Shown piece after piece: positions 41,117 through 48,496 of a DNA stretch of 64,000 nucleotides. The notes below the pieces were generated by a model. That model had not been told where the DNA came from. It saw nothing but the letters and a program-made list of their open reading frames with translations, and did not search any database. The position numbers and the translations under genes are program-made. The stretch lies in the IMG/VR virus record IMGVR_UViG_3300017987_005500; one strand, 5' to 3'. Within the stretch, counting starts at the first letter, position 1, and each line of letters begins with the position of its first letter. The stretch is from a virus. Its lineage: Duplodnaviria > Heunggongvirae > Uroviricota > Caudoviricetes.

Positions 41117-41977
41117 TTATACAATAGAAATAACTTTTTGTATAATCTCATTTATATTAGGAATATTATCTATAAACCTAATAACTTTCCAACCTTCATT
41201 TTCAATTAATAATTGTCTTTTCTTATCATATTGTTTATCTTGATGCCAATAACTATCATCATATTCAATTGCTATCATTTCACTTGGAATTGCAATATCA
41301 ATTGAAAAATTTAAACATGGATATTCTAGTTTAGTATCATTAAAATAATTAGAAATTATTTTAAATAATTTAAGTTGAGGTTTGGAAATTTTAGTAACTC
41401 CAGCTCTAGCAGCTAAAAATCCTCCATTTAACATATAATCTCTTTGGTTGTTTCTAAATTCACTTGTCTTTTGATAACAAGGTGTTCCATATTTCACCAT
41501 ACATGTATTTCGAGCCTTTAATAAACTTTCTTCACTATGCTTTTTTCCATAAAATGGATTTTTATCTCCTATTAATTTTTTCCCTCTCTTAGATAAATTA
41601 CTCTTTAATTTATTTGCTTTATCAAATCCAAATTGTTGTTCATATGTCTTCCCTTTATTAGGATGAACAGAATTTGGTTGATTCAACCAATGTTTATCTC
41701 CAAGTTTATTTTTTGAAGACTTGTCTTTGAACTTACTAGAATTACACATACATTTAACAGAGCAATATTTATGATGACCAACTACAAGATTAACCCATTT
41801 TGTATATTGGTTGCATCCTTTATAGTTTCCATAATTTAAACAAATATCATCACCATCATTCTTTATATATTTATCATAATATTCTTTTGATTTAATATTA
41901 TGAATTCTTAAATGACTTGTTAATGCTTTTAAACTTTTGAATTCTTTTCTGCAAATCTTGCATGTAATTATTTTCAT
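41117..41977 (-). CDS. Homing-type endonuclease (C2H2 finger + NUMOD3 + DUF559/Vsr-like nuclease)
   Basis: CKIC..HLRIH, NPFYGKKHSEES, IDIAI...IAIEYDDSYWH...GWKVIRF; start MKIIT after RBS ggag. Confidence 0.8.
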   Translation of the reverse strand: MKIITCKICRKEFKSLKALTSHLRIHNIKSKEYYDKYIKNDGDDICLNYGNYKGCNQYTKWVNLVVGHHKYCSVKCMCNSSKFKDKSSKNKLGDKHWLNQPNSVHPNKGKTYEQQFGFDKANKLKSNLSKRGKKLIGDKNPFYGKKHSEESLLKARNTCMVKYGTPCYQKTSEFRNNQRDYMLNGGFLAARAGVTKISKPQLKLFKIISNYFNDTKLEYPCLNFSIDIAIPSEMIAIEYDDSYWHQDKQYDKKRQLLIENEGWKVIRFIDNIPNINEIIQKVISIV

Positions 41978-42065
41978 TTTAATTTCTCCCGTTAGAAATA
42001 TTAAAAATGGGTAAGAGAAATAAAACGGGTATTTCTCAAGGTGGCCAGACCCTGTCCCCATTATT

Positions 42066-42810: not shown

Positions 42811-42857
42811 TAAAAAAAACTGAAAACGGTAAATATTTTTAATATAAAAAATATTAG

Positions 42858-42870
42858 TATATATATTAAT
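42858..42870 (+). promoter_or_regulatory. Putative early-promoter motif TATATATATTAAT upstream of the RAMP gene
   Basis: Identical core to motifs at 20936, 48497, 48955, 50065, 53908. Confidence 0.6.
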
Positions 42871-42985
42871 TATTAGTATAAGTATTATTATATAGTTTAT
42901 TTTTATTTATTTATTTTTTAAAAGTCTAAACTTATCAAAGCACATAGGTGCTAATAGGATTATTTGGACGAGAAAGGAGTCAATC

Positions 42986-43861
42986 GTGGCAAAAGCAGCA
43001 GATGAAAAGAAAACAGCAGCATCAAAGACAGCACCGAAACGTAAAACAAAAAGTGAACGTGAAAAAGAACTTGACAAAATGGTCAGGGGATTTAAACCTT
43101 ACTATGTTGATGTTACCGGTGAATACATTTCAACAATTTCGGGTTCCCGCCCTGAGGATACTGCTAAACTTATCAGTAAACCCTCAAAGACAGTCAATGA
43201 AGAGCTTCATAAAATTATGAAAGCTCAGGTTGAACTCTGCCTGCAAAAGGGAGATATTGAAGGAGCAACTGCGGCAGTAGATGCTTTCCAGAACTCTGGA
43301 AATGATTTTTCAAATCCCCTTCATGTTTTTCAACGGGATGAACAATGTGGCAGAAGACCTTTTCAAGGAGCTTATATGTTCTTTGGTGCCTTCCGAGATA
43401 CTATAAAGATGGCATATCCCAAAGACTTTAATATCTATATTAAGGTTAAAAATACATCCGGACCAAGTATAAAGCACTTAAGAAAGTCTGTGCGAGTTGC
43501 CCCGGATCATATTTTCCTCATGAAAGATGAGGATAATTACATGGAAGAAAGTGATATTGTTATTGAAAATCAGCACCCTGTTCCTCCAGACGTTAAGGGT
43601 TTCTCTCGTTTTGAGATTCTCCCAAAAGGAGCTATTGTGAAATACCGACTTGAAGTTCACAGCTGTACTCAATTCAATGCACTTGCTGATCTCGAGCTTG
43701 TTAAGAAAGTGATTATCCAAAGTGCCCTTCACGGAATTGGCTCACGACGAGCTTCCGGTTATGGCCAATGGAAAGTTAAAAAGATTGAATTCCATGAGAT
43801 GGCAGCAATGGAGGGAAGCGATGGACAAAAAGAGGATGAAGACGTCAGCAAGGCTGCGTAA
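42986..43861 (+). CDS. Stand-alone RAMP-superfamily (Cas7/Csm3-like) RNA-binding protein
   Basis: N-strand YVDVTGEYISTISG; RPFQGAYMFFGAFRD (cf. PxIPGSSxKGxxR); RFEILPKGAIVKYRL; C-terminal Gly-rich loop GIGSRRASGYGQWKV; GTG start after aaggag. Confidence 0.8.
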   Translation: MAKAADEKKTAASKTAPKRKTKSEREKELDKMVRGFKPYYVDVTGEYISTISGSRPEDTAKLISKPSKTVNEELHKIMKAQVELCLQKGDIEGATAAVDAFQNSGNDFSNPLHVFQRDEQCGRRPFQGAYMFFGAFRDTIKMAYPKDFNIYIKVKNTSGPSIKHLRKSVRVAPDHIFLMKDEDNYMEESDIVIENQHPVPPDVKGFSRFEILPKGAIVKYRLEVHSCTQFNALADLELVKKVIIQSALHGIGSRRASGYGQWKVKKIEFHEMAAMEGSDGQKEDEDVSKAA

Positions 43862-43886
43862 AACAGTAGCGAGAGGAGGAAATATT

Positions 43887-44102
43887 ATGGCAAAAGGAAT
43901 GGCCGATATGATGGTCGAAACTGCGGAGAAACTTCTTGATGGAGAGGTTCCTTTAAAGACTGGTGAAGTCGTTGCCAAAGTAGGTAATATACATCAGCTT
44001 GAACGCAAAAGAGATCATGATGCTCACGATCGTGGATTAAATGATGAAAATCTTAAAGGTTTTCAAAAGATTTGTAAACAATCTACGAAAAAGAAAAGAT
44101 AG
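43887..44102 (+). CDS. Small hypothetical protein co-transcribed with the RAMP (71 aa)
   Basis: RBS gaggagg then ATG 43887 (MAKGMADMMVETAEKLL...STKKKR). Confidence 0.7.
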   Translation: MAKGMADMMVETAEKLLDGEVPLKTGEVVAKVGNIHQLERKRDHDAHDRGLNDENLKGFQKICKQSTKKKR

Positions 44103-44112
44103 CAAATGGATA

Positions 44113-44139
44113 ATGGGGCGAGTTATGAGATCGCCCCAT
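44113..44139 (+). other. GC-rich hairpin at the 5' boundary of the repeat array
   Basis: atggggcga-9 nt-tcgccccat perfect 9-bp stem, no U-tract. Confidence 0.7.
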
Positions 44140-44184
44140 CCATGGAATATAGTTATATTTATTCCTCTTTCATGGTTTTCTTTT

Positions 44185-47100
44185 ATATTTAATAGAATGC
44201 ATAATATATCGAATCCGATCCTATGACATTCTATGTTGTATAATAGAATCCGACGCAATCACATTTTATTCACTAAAATGGGTTGAAGTTTAACCCATTT
44301 GCAATGTGAGCTATGATGCAACCGAATGAAATCATATTAAATAATCTAATAATTTAATTTAATTTGGTTAAATATTTTGTTTTGGTGTAGAATGTTATTC
44401 CATATTATTAATTTTAAATTCCTTACGTTATGATATAATTCAATTTTATTTGATTCGATTTACATATGTAATATTATTTTATGGGACAGCATCCATTTCA
44501 GTTGGATAAAATTCGATATACTATAAAACTTAATTGATTAGCACGTAATTCAATATAATTCCATCCGATCCATTTTTAAAGCAATTCGACACAGTACGAT
44601 CCGGTCGAATAAGTTGTAATTCAATCATATGCATTATTTTATTTAATGCTGTGAAGTATAATTGAATAAAATGGTATTCATAATTCAATGCGATGATAAA
44701 GAATGCGGTCCTGTCTCATTGAGTCGAATAGAATGGAATTACCTTTTAACTTAAACTTATTTCAACATGAACATATTCAATGCGATATAATGCACAATAT
44801 TATCTCATCCTATTCAGTGCGAAACTATTGAATAAGTTCCTATCCAATGAAATTCACAATTAAATAATGTATGGTAGCTTGTTTTGCTATGCGATTATAT
44901 TTCATCCATAAGTTTTACAATGCCAATAAATAAAATATGCAGTAAAATAGGCATTGAGAGCTTTTGATTTTATGTCATTTTAATCAGTTAAATCGAATGT
45001 CATTCATAAAAGAATATTATTCGTTATCGTATGGTGTGATTCAATTTAATGCTATGTTATCAGATTCACAATAATATACAATGCAAAGATTTCCTAAGAG
45101 ATCCAATATAATTCCGTAAATCGTAAGATTCTTTGCGACTCATTTTAATTCGTTATGGCGCCGTTGAATAACATAATATTCTCTATTCTATTTTACCGGT
45201 TACGTTCCTATTTGGTAAAATGGTATTTTATTTGATTCAATGATATTTACTTTGTAATACAATGCAAATATGTTCAATACTATGCGTTGCTATGCGATCC
45301 TATTCATTATACATTCAATTTAATACAATATTTTATAATTGAATAAGGTCTTATAAACTTTTTAATCTTACCCGTTCCTATTTAATACCATTTAATTCTA
45401 TAAATTATTCAACTGGTTAGTATGGGGTATTATGGTTTGTAATTACGTAAAATTGTATACATACGTAATATTGATCACTGTATAATTGGGTATAATACAA
45501 TACAATCTATATTTCACTGAATTGACTTTTAACGTATCATGCAGTATTATACAATTATGTTCAATTAAATAATGTTTTATGTATTATGATATGGAATAAA
45601 GTAATGTAGAAAGAAATCCTATCTGATAGCATTTTATACAATCTATATTTGAATTATATCCATTATAATACAGTTCAATGCGATACAATATAATTAAATT
45701 TCATTAATGATTCAATGTTACCGGTTTCGATACAATTTGTTAAATTATTATAAATAATTTGATCAGATCGAATTTAATCAAGCATTTCTTCTTAATATCT
45801 GATTGAATGCTATTCAATATATGATGGATGCGACGCCATTCCTTTGAATATTATGAAATAGTATATTATTCATTATTTAATTAGGTATAACAACTTTCAA
45901 TTTTATATTATATCATTCGATAAAATGAACGTTTTAATTGAATCTATTTCTATACGAAGCCGTTCCATGCTATTTTATGCGATGTCATAGATCTTTTAAT
46001 TAGATGCTATGCATTTCCATTGATTGGTACCGAATTCTTTACATTTCATTCCAATTCTATCGAATAAATATCTTATATATTTTATGTTAACTTTTTACTA
46101 AATTTAACTAAATAAATAAATAAGGAATATAATAAAATTAACTAAAAAATAACAAACCTTATTTAATATGTTTTCCAATGCAGTTGAGTAAAATTCTATT
46201 CATGATTAGATATAATAATTTTATGTTTAATACAATATGGTCAAATGTCTTAAGATACAATTTTATTTAATAAATGATTCGATTAATTTGAATTAGGTTC
46301 GATCCATTTACATAGTATTGTATGGAATAAAATACATAATTTGATGGGTTAGGATGTGATAGCTTATGGTATTATTGAATACAATTTTATTAATAATTTC
46401 ATATGATAAAACTCCATATTATTCTATTCTGTCGGGTTACATTCGATCAAATGTATAAAATATTCGTAATTGGATTCTTTGGGATTTATTAAGTTTCGAT
46501 CCTTTTACATCTCATTCTATTTAATAAATCTTTAATATGACTCTATTTGATTAGATGGAGTTCATTAGCACCCTTTTTAATCTAATAAAATATACTTTAT
46601 TTTATATTACTGTATGAGTTTGGGTAATATGAAATCAACAAATAAGGAATATAATAAAATTAAAATAAAAATATCAAACCTTATTTATAATACCATCCTA
46701 AAAGATGTAATTTTATAACATTCTATTTAATAAATCTCTATTAGGATTGAATCTGATATCATGCAGTTGGATAAGTTCCAATAAAATTGTGTTTTATATA
46801 TCATAGAATATTATTCATTGATATCCGTTATCTTATAATCCTGTGTCATATAATATCATAAACCATTAATACTTTATTATACTGTATTATATCTTATCCA
46901 ATTATATGAAATCTCATCCACATGGTATAAAATGTGATAGCTTATGGTATTATTGGATACAATTTCATTGATCATTGGATACTTTTGGATTCATTCCGAT
47001 GTCTTATGATCCTATTCAATGTTATTTATATTTTAATTACATCACATTGATTATGTTCCGATCCGTTAGAATTAAATTAAATGCGATTCATAAATAATAT

Positions 47101-47480
47101 GTGGTCATTTAGGATAATGTTTAAACAAATTAAATAATATATCATATACGTTTTAAACAACATTATATATTTCTGTATAAAATAAGGTCATATTTAATCC
47201 ATAATCCAATGCTATTTGATTTAATACAATAAAACACCATCATGTTCTATGGAATAATATTCTATTCACAATTTTAAATTGTATGTAATTCCATAATACG
47301 AAATCCAATTCCATAAAATACAATTCATAATTCTATAAAATTTTAATTATTATTATCCCATATTATGACATGACATCTCATCTTATTCATAATAATATTC
47401 TGTATCATTCCATGCTATTCAATATAATGATATAGCATTTACAATTTTAAAACCTATACTTTGATAATAAATGAGATTCA
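44185..47480 (+). repeat. 3.3-kb non-coding array of 5-nt-periodic units (NNATN)n in blocks delimited mostly by CA; candidate guide-RNA array
   Basis: No ORF of 60 aa or more in any frame from 44259 to 47567; e.g. 44681 taatt caatg cgatg ataaa gaatg cggtc ctgtc tcatt gagtc gaata gaatg gaatt; same register at 47328-47439. Confidence 0.85.
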
Positions 47481-47503
47481 ATGGGGTTAGATTTACCTAC
47501 CGG

Positions 47504-47542
47504 AAAAAGAGCTCCCACGATATTTATGGGAGCTCTTTTTTT
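47504..47542. terminator. Bidirectional intrinsic terminator closing the array
   Basis: aaaaagagctccca-loop-tgggagctcttttttt. Confidence 0.85.
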
Positions 47543-47567
47543 GTACACTTGTTATGCTAAAGATTAA

Positions 47568-48404
47568 TTATTGAATAAATGTTCCACAATTTTGACAAAA
47601 CTTTACATTAGACTTTGACTTAGTGCCACAAGATGGACAAGTTATTTTTGTTTTAACTGTAATTGGAGCTTCAACTTTAACTCCTGTGGACATTGTCCCT
47701 TTAAGTCTTATGATAATTGTCTGAGCTTCATCAGTCTCTCCAAAACTCACAGTGCGAAATCCTTGATGAGTTTCAGCACCCTTTACAGTAATTCCTTCAT
47801 CAAGAGCAGGTCCGTCATTTAAAGAATCTGTGACAACGCTATTATCACTTGATGCAACGGACTGAGAAGAATAAAGACAAGACCTTGGAGCTTCTCTTAG
47901 AGCGTCTCCTGTCCCTGCCATTTGTCCAGTAACTCCTAATCCTTTTGAAAATCCTCTTGGTCTTGGAGTCCCTGAACTTCCATAAATAGTATTATCATCA
48001 TTCCAATGATGATAAACATTATCATGGATGATTGTTCTTCTAAGGATTTCAGGTTTTGCTTTCTCGTAGGCAAATTCAACTCTTATAAAACCATCGTCTA
48101 CATTATCACCTCTGTGATCTGAGATTTCTTGAGTCTTTTGAATAAACCTGAAAGCATTACGGACTTCATTGTTTTCCATAAAACCTTTTAATTCAATTTC
48201 GGAATTTGGATTTACAATGAGGGAATGTCCATCAAGAACATCCTTGCTATCAATACTTATACTGACAGATGCTCTTCTTGACTCGAGATTTTTTAAAAGA
48301 ATTGAATAATCGGAACCGAAAGGGAGAGTGACAAGATCGTCTTGCTCTCTGAGGACTTTACCATTGACTTTTACGACTGCGATAAACTTTTGATTATACA
48401 CCAT
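47568..48404 (-). CDS. Conserved hypothetical protein with C-terminal Zn ribbon
   Basis: YSILLKNLESRRASVSISIDSKDV; CPSC...CQNC. Confidence 0.7.
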   Translation of the reverse strand: MVYNQKFIAVVKVNGKVLREQDDLVTLPFGSDYSILLKNLESRRASVSISIDSKDVLDGHSLIVNPNSEIELKGFMENNEVRNAFRFIQKTQEISDHRGDNVDDGFIRVEFAYEKAKPEILRRTIIHDNVYHHWNDDNTIYGSSGTPRPRGFSKGLGVTGQMAGTGDALREAPRSCLYSSQSVASSDNSVVTDSLNDGPALDEGITVKGAETHQGFRTVSFGETDEAQTIIIRLKGTMSTGVKVEAPITVKTKITCPSCGTKSKSNVKFCQNCGTFIQ

Positions 48405-48496
48405 TATTTCTCCTTACAGATCACAGACTAAGATCTGAAATTTTTAAAGTCTGTAGTTAAATAGCATAACAAGTTTTATTTTATATTTGTTCTTGT

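What the first reader, a model, noticed from the sequence alone, without database searches (positions are those of the whole stretch)
44681..44740. Variable dinucleotides look information-rich and could spell a gapped 2-of-3 target
Seen: in this block the triad positions are nearly fixed (T in 11 of 12, preceded by A or G in 12 of 12). The dinucleotides between triads read TC GC GA AG GC CC CT TG CG AG GG, far more GC-rich than the phage background. Inference: they derive from or match foreign (host or competitor) sequence. If each dinucleotide pairs and one target base is skipped (TCnGCnGAnAGn...), recognition could ignore codon wobble positions and resist synonymous escape. I could not search for targets.
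Basis: inference. Interest (0 to 1): 0.75.

Follow-up and report, generated by a model that had tools for sequence, protein, structure and literature searches.

The report
VIPR-type gapped guide RNA array

Summary
Block 44681-44740 has 12 near-fixed triads (n-R-T) and 11 variable dinucleotides. It lies in a 3.3-kb ORF-free array (44139-47495) of about 54 blocks, each 9-13 pentamers NNN-R-T, separated mostly by a 2-nt register slip.

Just upstream lie a lone Cas7-fold RAMP gene (42986-43861) and a small conserved ORF. A 96-99% identical relative lacks all three parts as one 4.7-kb indel. Four distant homologues of the RAMP on other contigs are also followed by N-R-T pentamer arrays.

This matches the VIPR systems published in 2026: a Vipr RAMP, a vap gene and pentamer vrRNAs that read DNA as NN-skip-NN.

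The block's 11 dinucleotides with a 1-nt skip match tRNA-Gly(GCC) and tRNA-Val(GAC) genes 22/22. The block with R-T removed is 31/33 identical to the tRNA-Val gene, and both mismatches fall on skipped positions.

A neighbouring guide (44575-44635) matches 15 viral contigs exactly and in frame, in type I restriction methylase (hsdM) genes whose wobble bases vary. A backwards control found none.

Verdict: the reading is supported. This is a variant of a known kind, with an R-U scaffold, no tails and an unusually large array. This scan has already found VIPR systems on other DNA.

The parts
42814..47534 (+). Whole cassette (RAMP gene, small ORF, array); it is an indel relative to a close relative
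   Evidence: Relative L004 (96-99% identical flanks) joins window 42813 to 47535 with about 66 nt in between. Relatives L005, L006 and L008 carry other ORFs in the same slot.
42986..43861 (+). vipr-like gene: lone Cas7-fold RAMP, 291 aa, with a G-rich loop near the C-terminus
   Evidence: Pfam RAMPs, weak (E 0.009; 7 of 38 homologues hit). AF2 model built on 38 homologues has pLDDT 88. Foldseek E about 1e-7 to type VII Cas7, Csm3, Cmr4 and Csf2. VIA Z 12.6. 46 representative homologues, all metagenomic. Atlas neighbour clusters are 92-96% viral.
43887..44102 (+). Small accessory ORF (71 aa), in the position of a vap gene
   Evidence: Homologous small ORFs follow the RAMP gene in L038, L039, L040 and L043 (alignment A2). 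No Pfam family. No similarity to SUSP1 vap1. No small ORF is called between the RAMP gene and the array in L037.
44113..44138 (+). GC hairpin between the small ORF and the array
   Evidence: Read from the sequence. A comparable hairpin precedes the array in L040. Its function was not tested.
44139..47495 (+). Array of about 54 guide blocks; the unit is NNN-R-T, equivalent to scaffold n-R-U plus NN
   Evidence: 574 pentamers. Units per block peak at 12 (range 9-13). The slip between blocks is mostly +2 nt, with junction consensus AT-WMAYNAT. No Rfam family.
44681..44741 (+). The block of the finding: an 11-unit guide matching tRNA-Val(GAC) and tRNA-Gly(GCC) genes
   Evidence: 22/22 NN with 1-nt skip in L048/L049 (tRNA-Gly) and L079 (tRNA-Val). 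With R-T removed, identity is 31/33 and 28/33, and every mismatch is at a skipped position. The match ends at the block's borders.
44575..44635 (+). Guide antisense to a conserved N-terminal motif of type I R-M methyltransferase HsdM
   Evidence: 15 exact hits in IMG/VR, all in codon frame with the skip at position 3. The proteins carry Pfam HsdM_N + N6_Mtase and PADLOC MTase_I. The backwards control gave 0 hits.
47504..47542 (.). Two-way terminator hairpin closing the array; it also serves the minus-strand gene 47568-48404
   Evidence: Read from the sequence: a 13-bp stem and an 11-nt loop, with an A run before it and a T run after it. The scan tool missed it because it only accepts loops of 3-8 nt.
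46066..46163 (+). Non-periodic insert inside the array; a second copy lies at 46636-46685
   Evidence: HMM background segments. A 56-nt repeat, 89% identical (D8). Part of a higher-order duplication of about 520-580 nt. Function unknown.

Best explanation
The block is one guide (vrRNA-like unit) of a phage-borne VIPR-type RNA-guided system. Inferred by analogy with the SUSP1 system: the array is transcribed on the + strand together with the RAMP gene. One RAMP protomer binds each pentamer and sequesters the scaffold bases (n-R-U here, G-G-Y in SUSP1). The two following bases (NN) are left exposed. A filament of about 11-12 protomers then reads double-stranded DNA as NN-skip-NN-skip and blocks transcription. 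Shown here: the anatomy, the conserved link between this RAMP family and N-R-T pentamer arrays, and natural sequences that fit the 1-nt skip rule for two guides. This block fits tRNA-Val(GAC)/tRNA-Gly(GCC) genes; guide 44575-44635 fits the 5' end of hsdM genes of type I restriction-modification systems. The likely role is control of host or rival-element genes, including anti-restriction. Expression, processing, binding and silencing were not tested.
For: (1) Cas7-fold lone RAMP. (2) RAMP gene, small ORF and array form one 4.7-kb indel cassette. (3) Four distinct homologues at 36-44% identity on other contigs (GC 41-50%), on six loci L037-L042, are each followed by an N-R-T pentamer array. (4) Units per block peak at 12, as in the published vrRNAs of 9-16 units and 12 Vipr protomers (10.64898/2026.04.26.720920...720927). 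(5) This block: exact 22/22 skip-1 matches to tRNA genes; 31/33 with the third bases included; 17 of 121 genomes of that order match with 3 or fewer mismatches against 0 for the backwards control. (6) hsdM guide: 15 exact in-frame hits with varying wobble bases against 0 for the control. (7) The NN spectrum matches the antisense of codon positions 1-2 (r 0.93, bootstrap 0.81-0.95) far better than other frames (0.23-0.69) or genome dinucleotides (0.64).
Against: No sequence similarity to SUSP1 Vipr or vap1 was detected (hhalign probability under 1%; tblastn against phage records found nothing). The scaffold is not GGY, and only two positions (R, U) are conserved across the family. There is no conserved 3' tail or pseudoknot. 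Only 2 of the 5 guides scanned for external targets gave one; the DSGGFQ, DGDVDRPQDAA and LDIGSGSAVF guides gave none. Skip sizes 0, 2 and 3 could not be scanned on the large collections. The hsdM hits lie in contigs of 56-68% GC, and the tRNA hits in genomes whose link to this 31% GC phage is unproven. The hsdM pattern was not found in 51 genomes of the order that carries the tRNA matches.
Confidence: 0.85

Rival explanations
1. Same system, different code: in this R-U-scaffold clade all three variable bases (NNN) pair with three contiguous target bases and only R-U is flipped out. The target would then be ungapped, and mismatches at every third base would merely be tolerated.
For: Across the family only positions 4-5 are conserved and position 3 is free. 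The complement of position 3 behaves like the wobble base of the adjoining codon: codon-usage likelihood z=3.05, P=0.001; stops 13 against 19±3.2; neighbouring-pentamer controls null. Position 3 agrees with the tRNA-Val gene at 9 of 11 sites. The discovery paper lists NNNGG, YNNNG and NNNNG repeat types.
Against: The signal matches only about 40% true wobble bases in simulation. Third bases agree with the hsdM hits at just 3-6 of 11. tRNA-Gly matches all NN but only 6 of 11 third bases. So pairing of the third base is not required for the matches seen; it could equally be a relic of how guides arise.
Confidence: 0.2
2. The filament targets RNA (mRNA), like the type III and VII Cas7 effectors it resembles, rather than double-stranded DNA.
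For: Guide orientation is strongly biased. A mixture fit gives 99% antisense to coding sequence, and 43 of 54 blocks favour antisense. The published VIPR targets lie on both strands. The nearest solved folds are RNA-targeting Csm3, Cmr4 and type VII Cas7.
Against: The block of the finding has the same sense as the tRNA, so it could pair with the gene's template strand but not with the tRNA itself. No catalytic residues were examined. The bias may simply reflect a preference for one DNA strand.
Confidence: 0.12
3. The array is a protein-binding scaffold with no guide function. It could be an RNA sponge for a ring or filament protein (TRAP-like, 11-12 sites per ring), or DNA with half-turn periodic binding sites; the variable bases would be neutral filler.
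For: Blocks of 11-12 units plus a 2-nt slip fit a ring of 11-12 subunits; 62 bp is also about six helical turns. This was my first working idea.
Against: Neutral filler would not reproduce 31 of 33 bases of a tRNA gene, nor spell a conserved HsdM motif in frame in 15 contigs. Nor would it carry a codon position 1-2 spectrum. The small ORF shows no Pfam family, TRAP included.
Confidence: 0.03

Closest known systems
VIPR systems (Viral Interference Programmable Repeat); type II of Escherichia phage SUSP1 is the experimental example (bioRxiv 10.64898/2026.04.26.720920, 10.64898/2026.04.26.720927, 10.64898/2026.10.15.759431)
   Same: A lone RAMP gene plus a small accessory gene plus same-strand pentamer repeats in a phage. 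About 12 units per guide. Three scaffold positions followed by a variable NN. Natural targets fit the NN-skip-NN rule, with the skip on codon position 3. The locus is an accessory cassette that close relatives lack. I located the SUSP1 locus myself for comparison.
   Different: The scaffold is n-R-U (mostly A-A-U) instead of G-G-Y. The protein is 291 aa against 195 aa, with no detectable sequence similarity. There is no pseudoknot tail. There are 54 guides in 3.3 kb against four vrRNAs. The guides are almost all antisense to coding sequence. One guide matches a tRNA gene.
Non-canonical VIPR arrays: NNNGG, YNNNG and NNNNG repeats and 'staggered' tail-less arrays (10.64898/2026.04.26.720920, methods and fig. 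S17-S18 legends); GAC/NN, CAC/NN, WGT/NN and TGH/NN units (10.64898/2026.10.21.760802)
   Same: Period 5 with a relaxed or altered scaffold next to a Vipr-like fold. Guides abut one another without tails. U-NNN-R is formally a YNNNG-like unit, and W-G-T/NN is close to n-R-T/NN.
   Different: None of the listed consensus units has A as the dominant purine. The figures and tables of those papers are not held, so I could not check whether this clade is among their 667 loci or 21 clusters. All homologues found here are metagenomic, with no NCBI accession.
Cas7 backbone subunits of class 1 CRISPR-Cas (Csm3, Cmr4, type VII Cas7, Csf2)
   Same: RRM core, G-rich loop and thumb-type fold (Foldseek E about 1e-7, VIA Z up to 12.6). 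One protomer per short RNA segment.
   Different: No CRISPR repeat-spacer array, and no other gene in the 4.7-kb cassette. Period 5 with a sequence-specific scaffold instead of period 6 without sequence preference.

Membership tests
VIPR system | Lone RAMP-fold (Vipr) gene without other cas genes | tested here: met
   Cas7-type fold. The indel cassette holds only this gene, a 71-aa ORF and the array. Pfam and PHROG scans of ten ORFs between 38379 and 52610 (those flanking the cassette among them) show tail and homing-endonuclease genes and no Cas family; the rest of the window was not scanned.
VIPR system | Adjacent tandem 5-nt repeats alternating fixed and variable positions, 9-16 units per vrRNA | tested here: met
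   574 pentamers in 54 blocks, with a mode of 12 units. The same is seen next to four homologues on other contigs.
VIPR system | Canonical scaffold G-G-Y | tested here: not met
   The scaffold is n-R-U. In the window: A 40%, then A 73%/G 10%, then T 92%. In homologous arrays: position 3 free, R 79-89%, T 83-95%. The papers do allow 'a related consensus'.
VIPR system | Targets obey the 1-nt skip rule (NN-x-NN) | tested here: met
   Two guides: tRNA genes 22/22 and hsdM in 15 contigs 22/22 in frame, with the control at 0. Three other guides scanned on the large collections gave nothing. Other skip sizes were not scanned there.
VIPR system | Conserved structured 3' tail (pseudoknot) capping each vrRNA (type II) | tested here: not met
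   Blocks abut one another with a 2-nt slip (junction AT-WMAYNAT) and no conserved tail. This resembles the published 'staggered' arrays.
VIPR system | Homology of the protein to described Vipr proteins | tested here: inconclusive
   hhalign of the family profile against SUSP1 Vipr gives probability 0.4%, and tblastn against phage records finds nothing. RAMPs are known to lack sequence similarity. SUSP1 Vipr is in the PDB sequence copy (36pp) but did not appear among the listed fold hits. No phylogeny was made.
VIPR system | vap accessory gene | tested here: inconclusive
   A small ORF is conserved in five loci. It has no Pfam family and no similarity to vap1. The sequences of vap2-6 are not available to me.
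VIPR system | vrRNA expression, RNP formation, dsDNA binding and silencing | not testable with these tools
   Needs small-RNA sequencing, pull-down and binding or reporter assays.
CRISPR-Cas class 1 (type III/IV/VII) | Repeat-spacer CRISPR array and further cas genes (Cas5, Cas10/Cas8, Cas6, Cas11) | tested here: not met
   No long direct repeats in 44000-47600. The cassette has two ORFs only.
TRAP-like RNA-binding ring with triplet repeats | Small beta-sandwich subunit (Pfam TrpBP) and (G/U)AG triplets spaced by 2-3 nt | tested here: not met
   No Pfam family in the small ORFs. The triads are n-R-U. The variable bases carry target information.

The most novel reading that the evidence does not exclude
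This metagenome-only Vipr-like clade uses a two-base R-U scaffold, and its guides are built as antisense copies of target codons with R-U inserted between the third base of one codon and the second base of the next. The retained third-base memory and the near-total antisense orientation would then point to one of two things: a copy-based way of making new guides, or a pairing mode (contiguous triplets, or mRNA targeting) that differs from the published GGY/NN dsDNA code. With 54 guides, the array would be a broad panel against host functions (tRNA genes, type I restriction) rather than against rival phages only.
Probability: 0.2. Interest if true: 0.8.

Novelty: new variant of a known kind. 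Interest (0 to 1): 0.5.

Why it matters
VIPR was described only in 2026 and its natural diversity is barely charted. This locus adds four things.

- A Vipr-like protein family known only from metagenomes.
- A scaffold reduced to purine-U in an AT-rich phage.
- A tail-less array of 54 guides, against the four vrRNAs of SUSP1.
- Two concrete natural matches: a tRNA gene and the 5' end of type I restriction methylase genes.

The hsdM match suggests RNA-guided anti-restriction. The tRNA match is a target class that I did not see in the parts of the VIPR papers I read.

The third-base memory and the antisense bias are testable clues to how such guides arise and which strand, or which nucleic acid, they read.

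Tried and rejected
- **TRAP-like ring or DNA half-turn binding array.** This was my first idea. I dropped it once the variable bases proved to carry target sequence.
- **Rfam and tRNA scans of the window.** Nothing found.
- **BLAST of the array and its flanks against phage records.** No match.
- **Single-sequence AF2 of the RAMP.** Useless, pLDDT 36.
- **Period-5 scan of 33 sheath-gene relatives.** No arrays.
- **Target scans of all 54 guides.** I scanned the rest of the window and 348 kb of related phages with NN at skip 0-3 and NNN at skip 0-2. Real guides equalled shuffled guides everywhere. This shows no self-targeting and no target in those fragments.
- **Nine-unit core of the block in IMG/VR.** One hit, out of codon frame, with flanks matching 2 of 4; taken as chance.
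- **DSGGFQVAEGRI guide.** 0 hits in IMG/VR, 0 in metagenomes (12 and 10 units), 0 in 121 genomes with up to 3 mismatches.
- **DGDVDRPQDAA and LDIGSGSAVF guides.** 0 hits in IMG/VR.
- **hsdM guide.** Not found in 51 genomes of the order with the tRNA matches.
- **The other 53 guides.** None matches the tRNA loci of genome G032.
- **Comparing skip sizes on the hit loci.** Biased, because those loci were picked by skip-1 hits; I do not use it as evidence.
- **Whole genome of the window and the 163-kb contig.** Neither could be searched.
- **Array variation between samples.** Copies from other samples are identical, so guide turnover could not be studied.

Full report
**Observation.** Read in register, 44681-44740 is a run of pentamers. 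The last base is T in 11 of 12 triads and the base before it is A or G in 12 of 12.

The block is not isolated. The ORF-free stretch 44139-47495 is pentamer-periodic throughout. Windows with at least 9 of 12 R-T at period 5 number 116 inside it and 6 in the other 60 kb; periods 3, 4, 6 and 7 give none inside.

An HMM puts 90% of 44101-47600 in register. Position 4 is A 74%/G 10% and position 5 is T 91%; positions 1-3 are variable.

The register slips about every 12 units, mostly by +2 nt at a junction of the form AT-WMAYNAT. This yields 54 blocks of mostly 9-13 pentamers, with autocorrelation peaks at 57 and 62 nt. The finding's block has the most GC-rich dinucleotides of all blocks: 73% against a mean of 39.5%.

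**Context.** On the same strand, directly upstream, lie a 291-aa ORF (42986-43861), a 71-aa ORF (43887-44102) and a GC hairpin. A two-way terminator hairpin (47504-47542) closes the array.

A relative with 96-99% identical flanks (L004) lacks window 42814-47534 entirely. More distant relatives carry unrelated ORFs in that slot. The two ORFs and the array are therefore one accessory cassette.

The 291-aa protein gives only a weak Pfam RAMP hit. An exhaustive HMMER search found 46 representative homologues. All ten that were looked up come from metagenomes, without NCBI accessions. Their nearest Atlas clusters are 92-96% viral.

With these homologues as alignment, AlphaFold gives pLDDT 88. The model matches Cas7-family subunits: type VII Cas7, Csm3, Cmr4 and Csf2, with Foldseek E about 1e-7 and VIA Z up to 12.6.

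Four distinct homologues (36-44% identity, from contigs of 41-50% GC, on six loci L037-L042) are each followed by an array of N-R-T pentamers. In those arrays only positions 4 (R 79-89%) and 5 (T 83-95%) are conserved. A homologous small ORF follows the RAMP gene in four other loci. The link between protein and array is thus conserved across the family.

**What is known.** A literature search led to the VIPR systems. These comprise a lone RAMP (Vipr), a vap gene, and vrRNAs of 9-16 pentamers G-G-Y-N-N.

- One Vipr protomer binds each repeat and sequesters G-G-Y.
- The NN bases pair with double-stranded DNA, and every third target base is skipped.
- Targets often have the skipped base on the codon wobble position.
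- The effect is transcriptional silencing of rival elements.

These points come from 10.64898/2026.04.26.720920...720927 and 10.64898/2026.10.15.759431.

Non-canonical units are also in print: NNNGG, YNNNG and NNNNG, and GAC, CAC, WGT and TGH scaffolds. So are tail-less 'staggered' arrays.

Mapped onto it, the unit here is [n-R-U]-N-N. U sits where Y sits and R where the second G sits.

**Test on this block.** The eleven dinucleotides joined by single wildcards (22 specified bases) gave one exact hit among the species genomes. It lies in a tRNA-Gly(GCC) gene.

In 121 genomes of that genome's order, 17 carry a match with 3 or fewer mismatches. One of these is a second exact match, in a tRNA-Val(GAC) gene. 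The backwards control found none.

With the R-T bases removed, the block (33 nt) is 31/33 identical to tRNA-Val positions 12-44 and 28/33 to tRNA-Gly. Every mismatch falls on a skipped position, and the match ends at the block's borders.

This is far beyond chance. None of the other 53 guides matches the tRNA loci of that genome.

**Test on the array.** The spectrum of the 574 NN dinucleotides correlates r=0.93 (bootstrap 0.81-0.95) with the reverse complement of codon positions 1-2 of the phage's own ORFs. Other frames give 0.23-0.69 and genome dinucleotides 0.64. A mixture fit puts 99% of guides antisense to coding sequence.

An earlier first-reader note suggested that guide 44575-44635 spells an HsdM motif, so I scanned it. 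The skip-1 pattern (22 specified bases) has 15 exact hits in IMG/VR.

- All 15 are in codon frame with the skip on position 3.
- All lie in the N-terminal peptide W-x-A-C-D-T-F-R-G-V-V-D-A of type I R-M methyltransferases (Pfam HsdM_N + N6_Mtase, PADLOC MTase_I).
- Their wobble bases differ from hit to hit.
- The same pattern read backwards has none.

This is the 'resist synonymous escape' logic in a natural example.

**Limits.** Three other guides (DSGGFQ..., DGDVDRPQDAA, LDIGSGSAVF) gave no exact hit. No guide matches the rest of the window or 348 kb of related phages better than shuffled guides, at any skip size.

The host is unknown. The hsdM hits come from contigs of 56-68% GC, and the hsdM site was not found in 51 genomes of the order with the tRNA matches.

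No sequence similarity to SUSP1 Vipr or vap1 is detectable. Membership in the Vipr clade therefore rests on fold, locus architecture and code.

**Beyond the known.** The complement of position 3 of the preceding pentamer behaves like the wobble base of the codon spelled by the next NN. Codon-usage likelihood gives z=3.05, P=0.001, and stops are depleted (13 against 19±3.2). Controls with the same or the next pentamer are null. In simulation this corresponds to about 40% true wobble bases. Position 3 also agrees with tRNA-Val at 9 of 11 sites.

Read antisense, the array is codons with A-Y inserted between positions 2 and 3. Either guides arise as copies of targets and the third base then decays, or the third base can pair. 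Together with the antisense bias, this leaves room for a code or target type that differs from SUSP1's. I rate that at about 20%.

**Verdict.** This is a VIPR-type system and hence a known kind. It is a distinct variant: an R-U scaffold, no tails, 54 guides, a metagenome-only protein family, and tRNA and hsdM matches. The scan has already reported VIPR systems on other DNA.

Noticed in passing
window 44139-47495 (position 3 of each pentamer): The first scaffold position keeps a statistical memory of the target's wobble base (z=3.05; stop depletion 13 against 19). Read antisense, the array is codon positions 1-2, then A-Y, then position 3.
   Followed up: partly
window 44139-47495: Guide orientation is almost entirely antisense to coding sequence (mixture fit 99%; 43 of 54 blocks). 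The published VIPR targets lie on both strands.
   Followed up: partly
L079 1512-1544 and L049 1501-1533: The same guide matches two different tRNAs, Val(GAC) and Gly(GCC). The middle anticodon base and the other differences between the two fall on skipped positions.
   Followed up: partly
window 46110-46165 and 46632-46687; 46337-46393 and 46921-46971: A non-periodic 56-nt element occurs twice inside the array (89% identical). It is part of a duplication of about 520-580 nt that also duplicated a guide (decoded ...NVQIMLTLP... in both copies).
   Followed up: no
window 41117-42061 (-) and the slot 42814-47534: A C2H2 zinc-finger / NUMOD3 / DUF559 homing-endonuclease-like gene sits beside the cassette. 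Relatives L005, L006 and L008 carry 2-3.5 kb of unrelated ORFs in the same slot, so it is a cargo hotspot between the sheath-side genes and the zinc-ribbon gene.
   Followed up: partly
window 48201-48416: All 39 substitutions and the 1 indel between the window and contig L001 (15.4 kb otherwise identical) cluster in the 5' part of the zinc-ribbon protein gene 47568-48404. This is a mosaic patch.
   Followed up: no
L039 91-504 and 1654-2440; L037 2130-2210: In two homologous loci pentamer arrays lie on both sides of the RAMP gene, as SUSP1 has one vrRNA upstream and three downstream.
   Followed up: no
L048 3073-3147: ARAGORN calls a tRNA-like gene with a four-base anticodon (aacg) about 0.9 kb from the matched tRNA-Gly, in a MAG labelled 'uncultured Bifidobacterium' although local GC is only 38-52%.
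   Followed up: no
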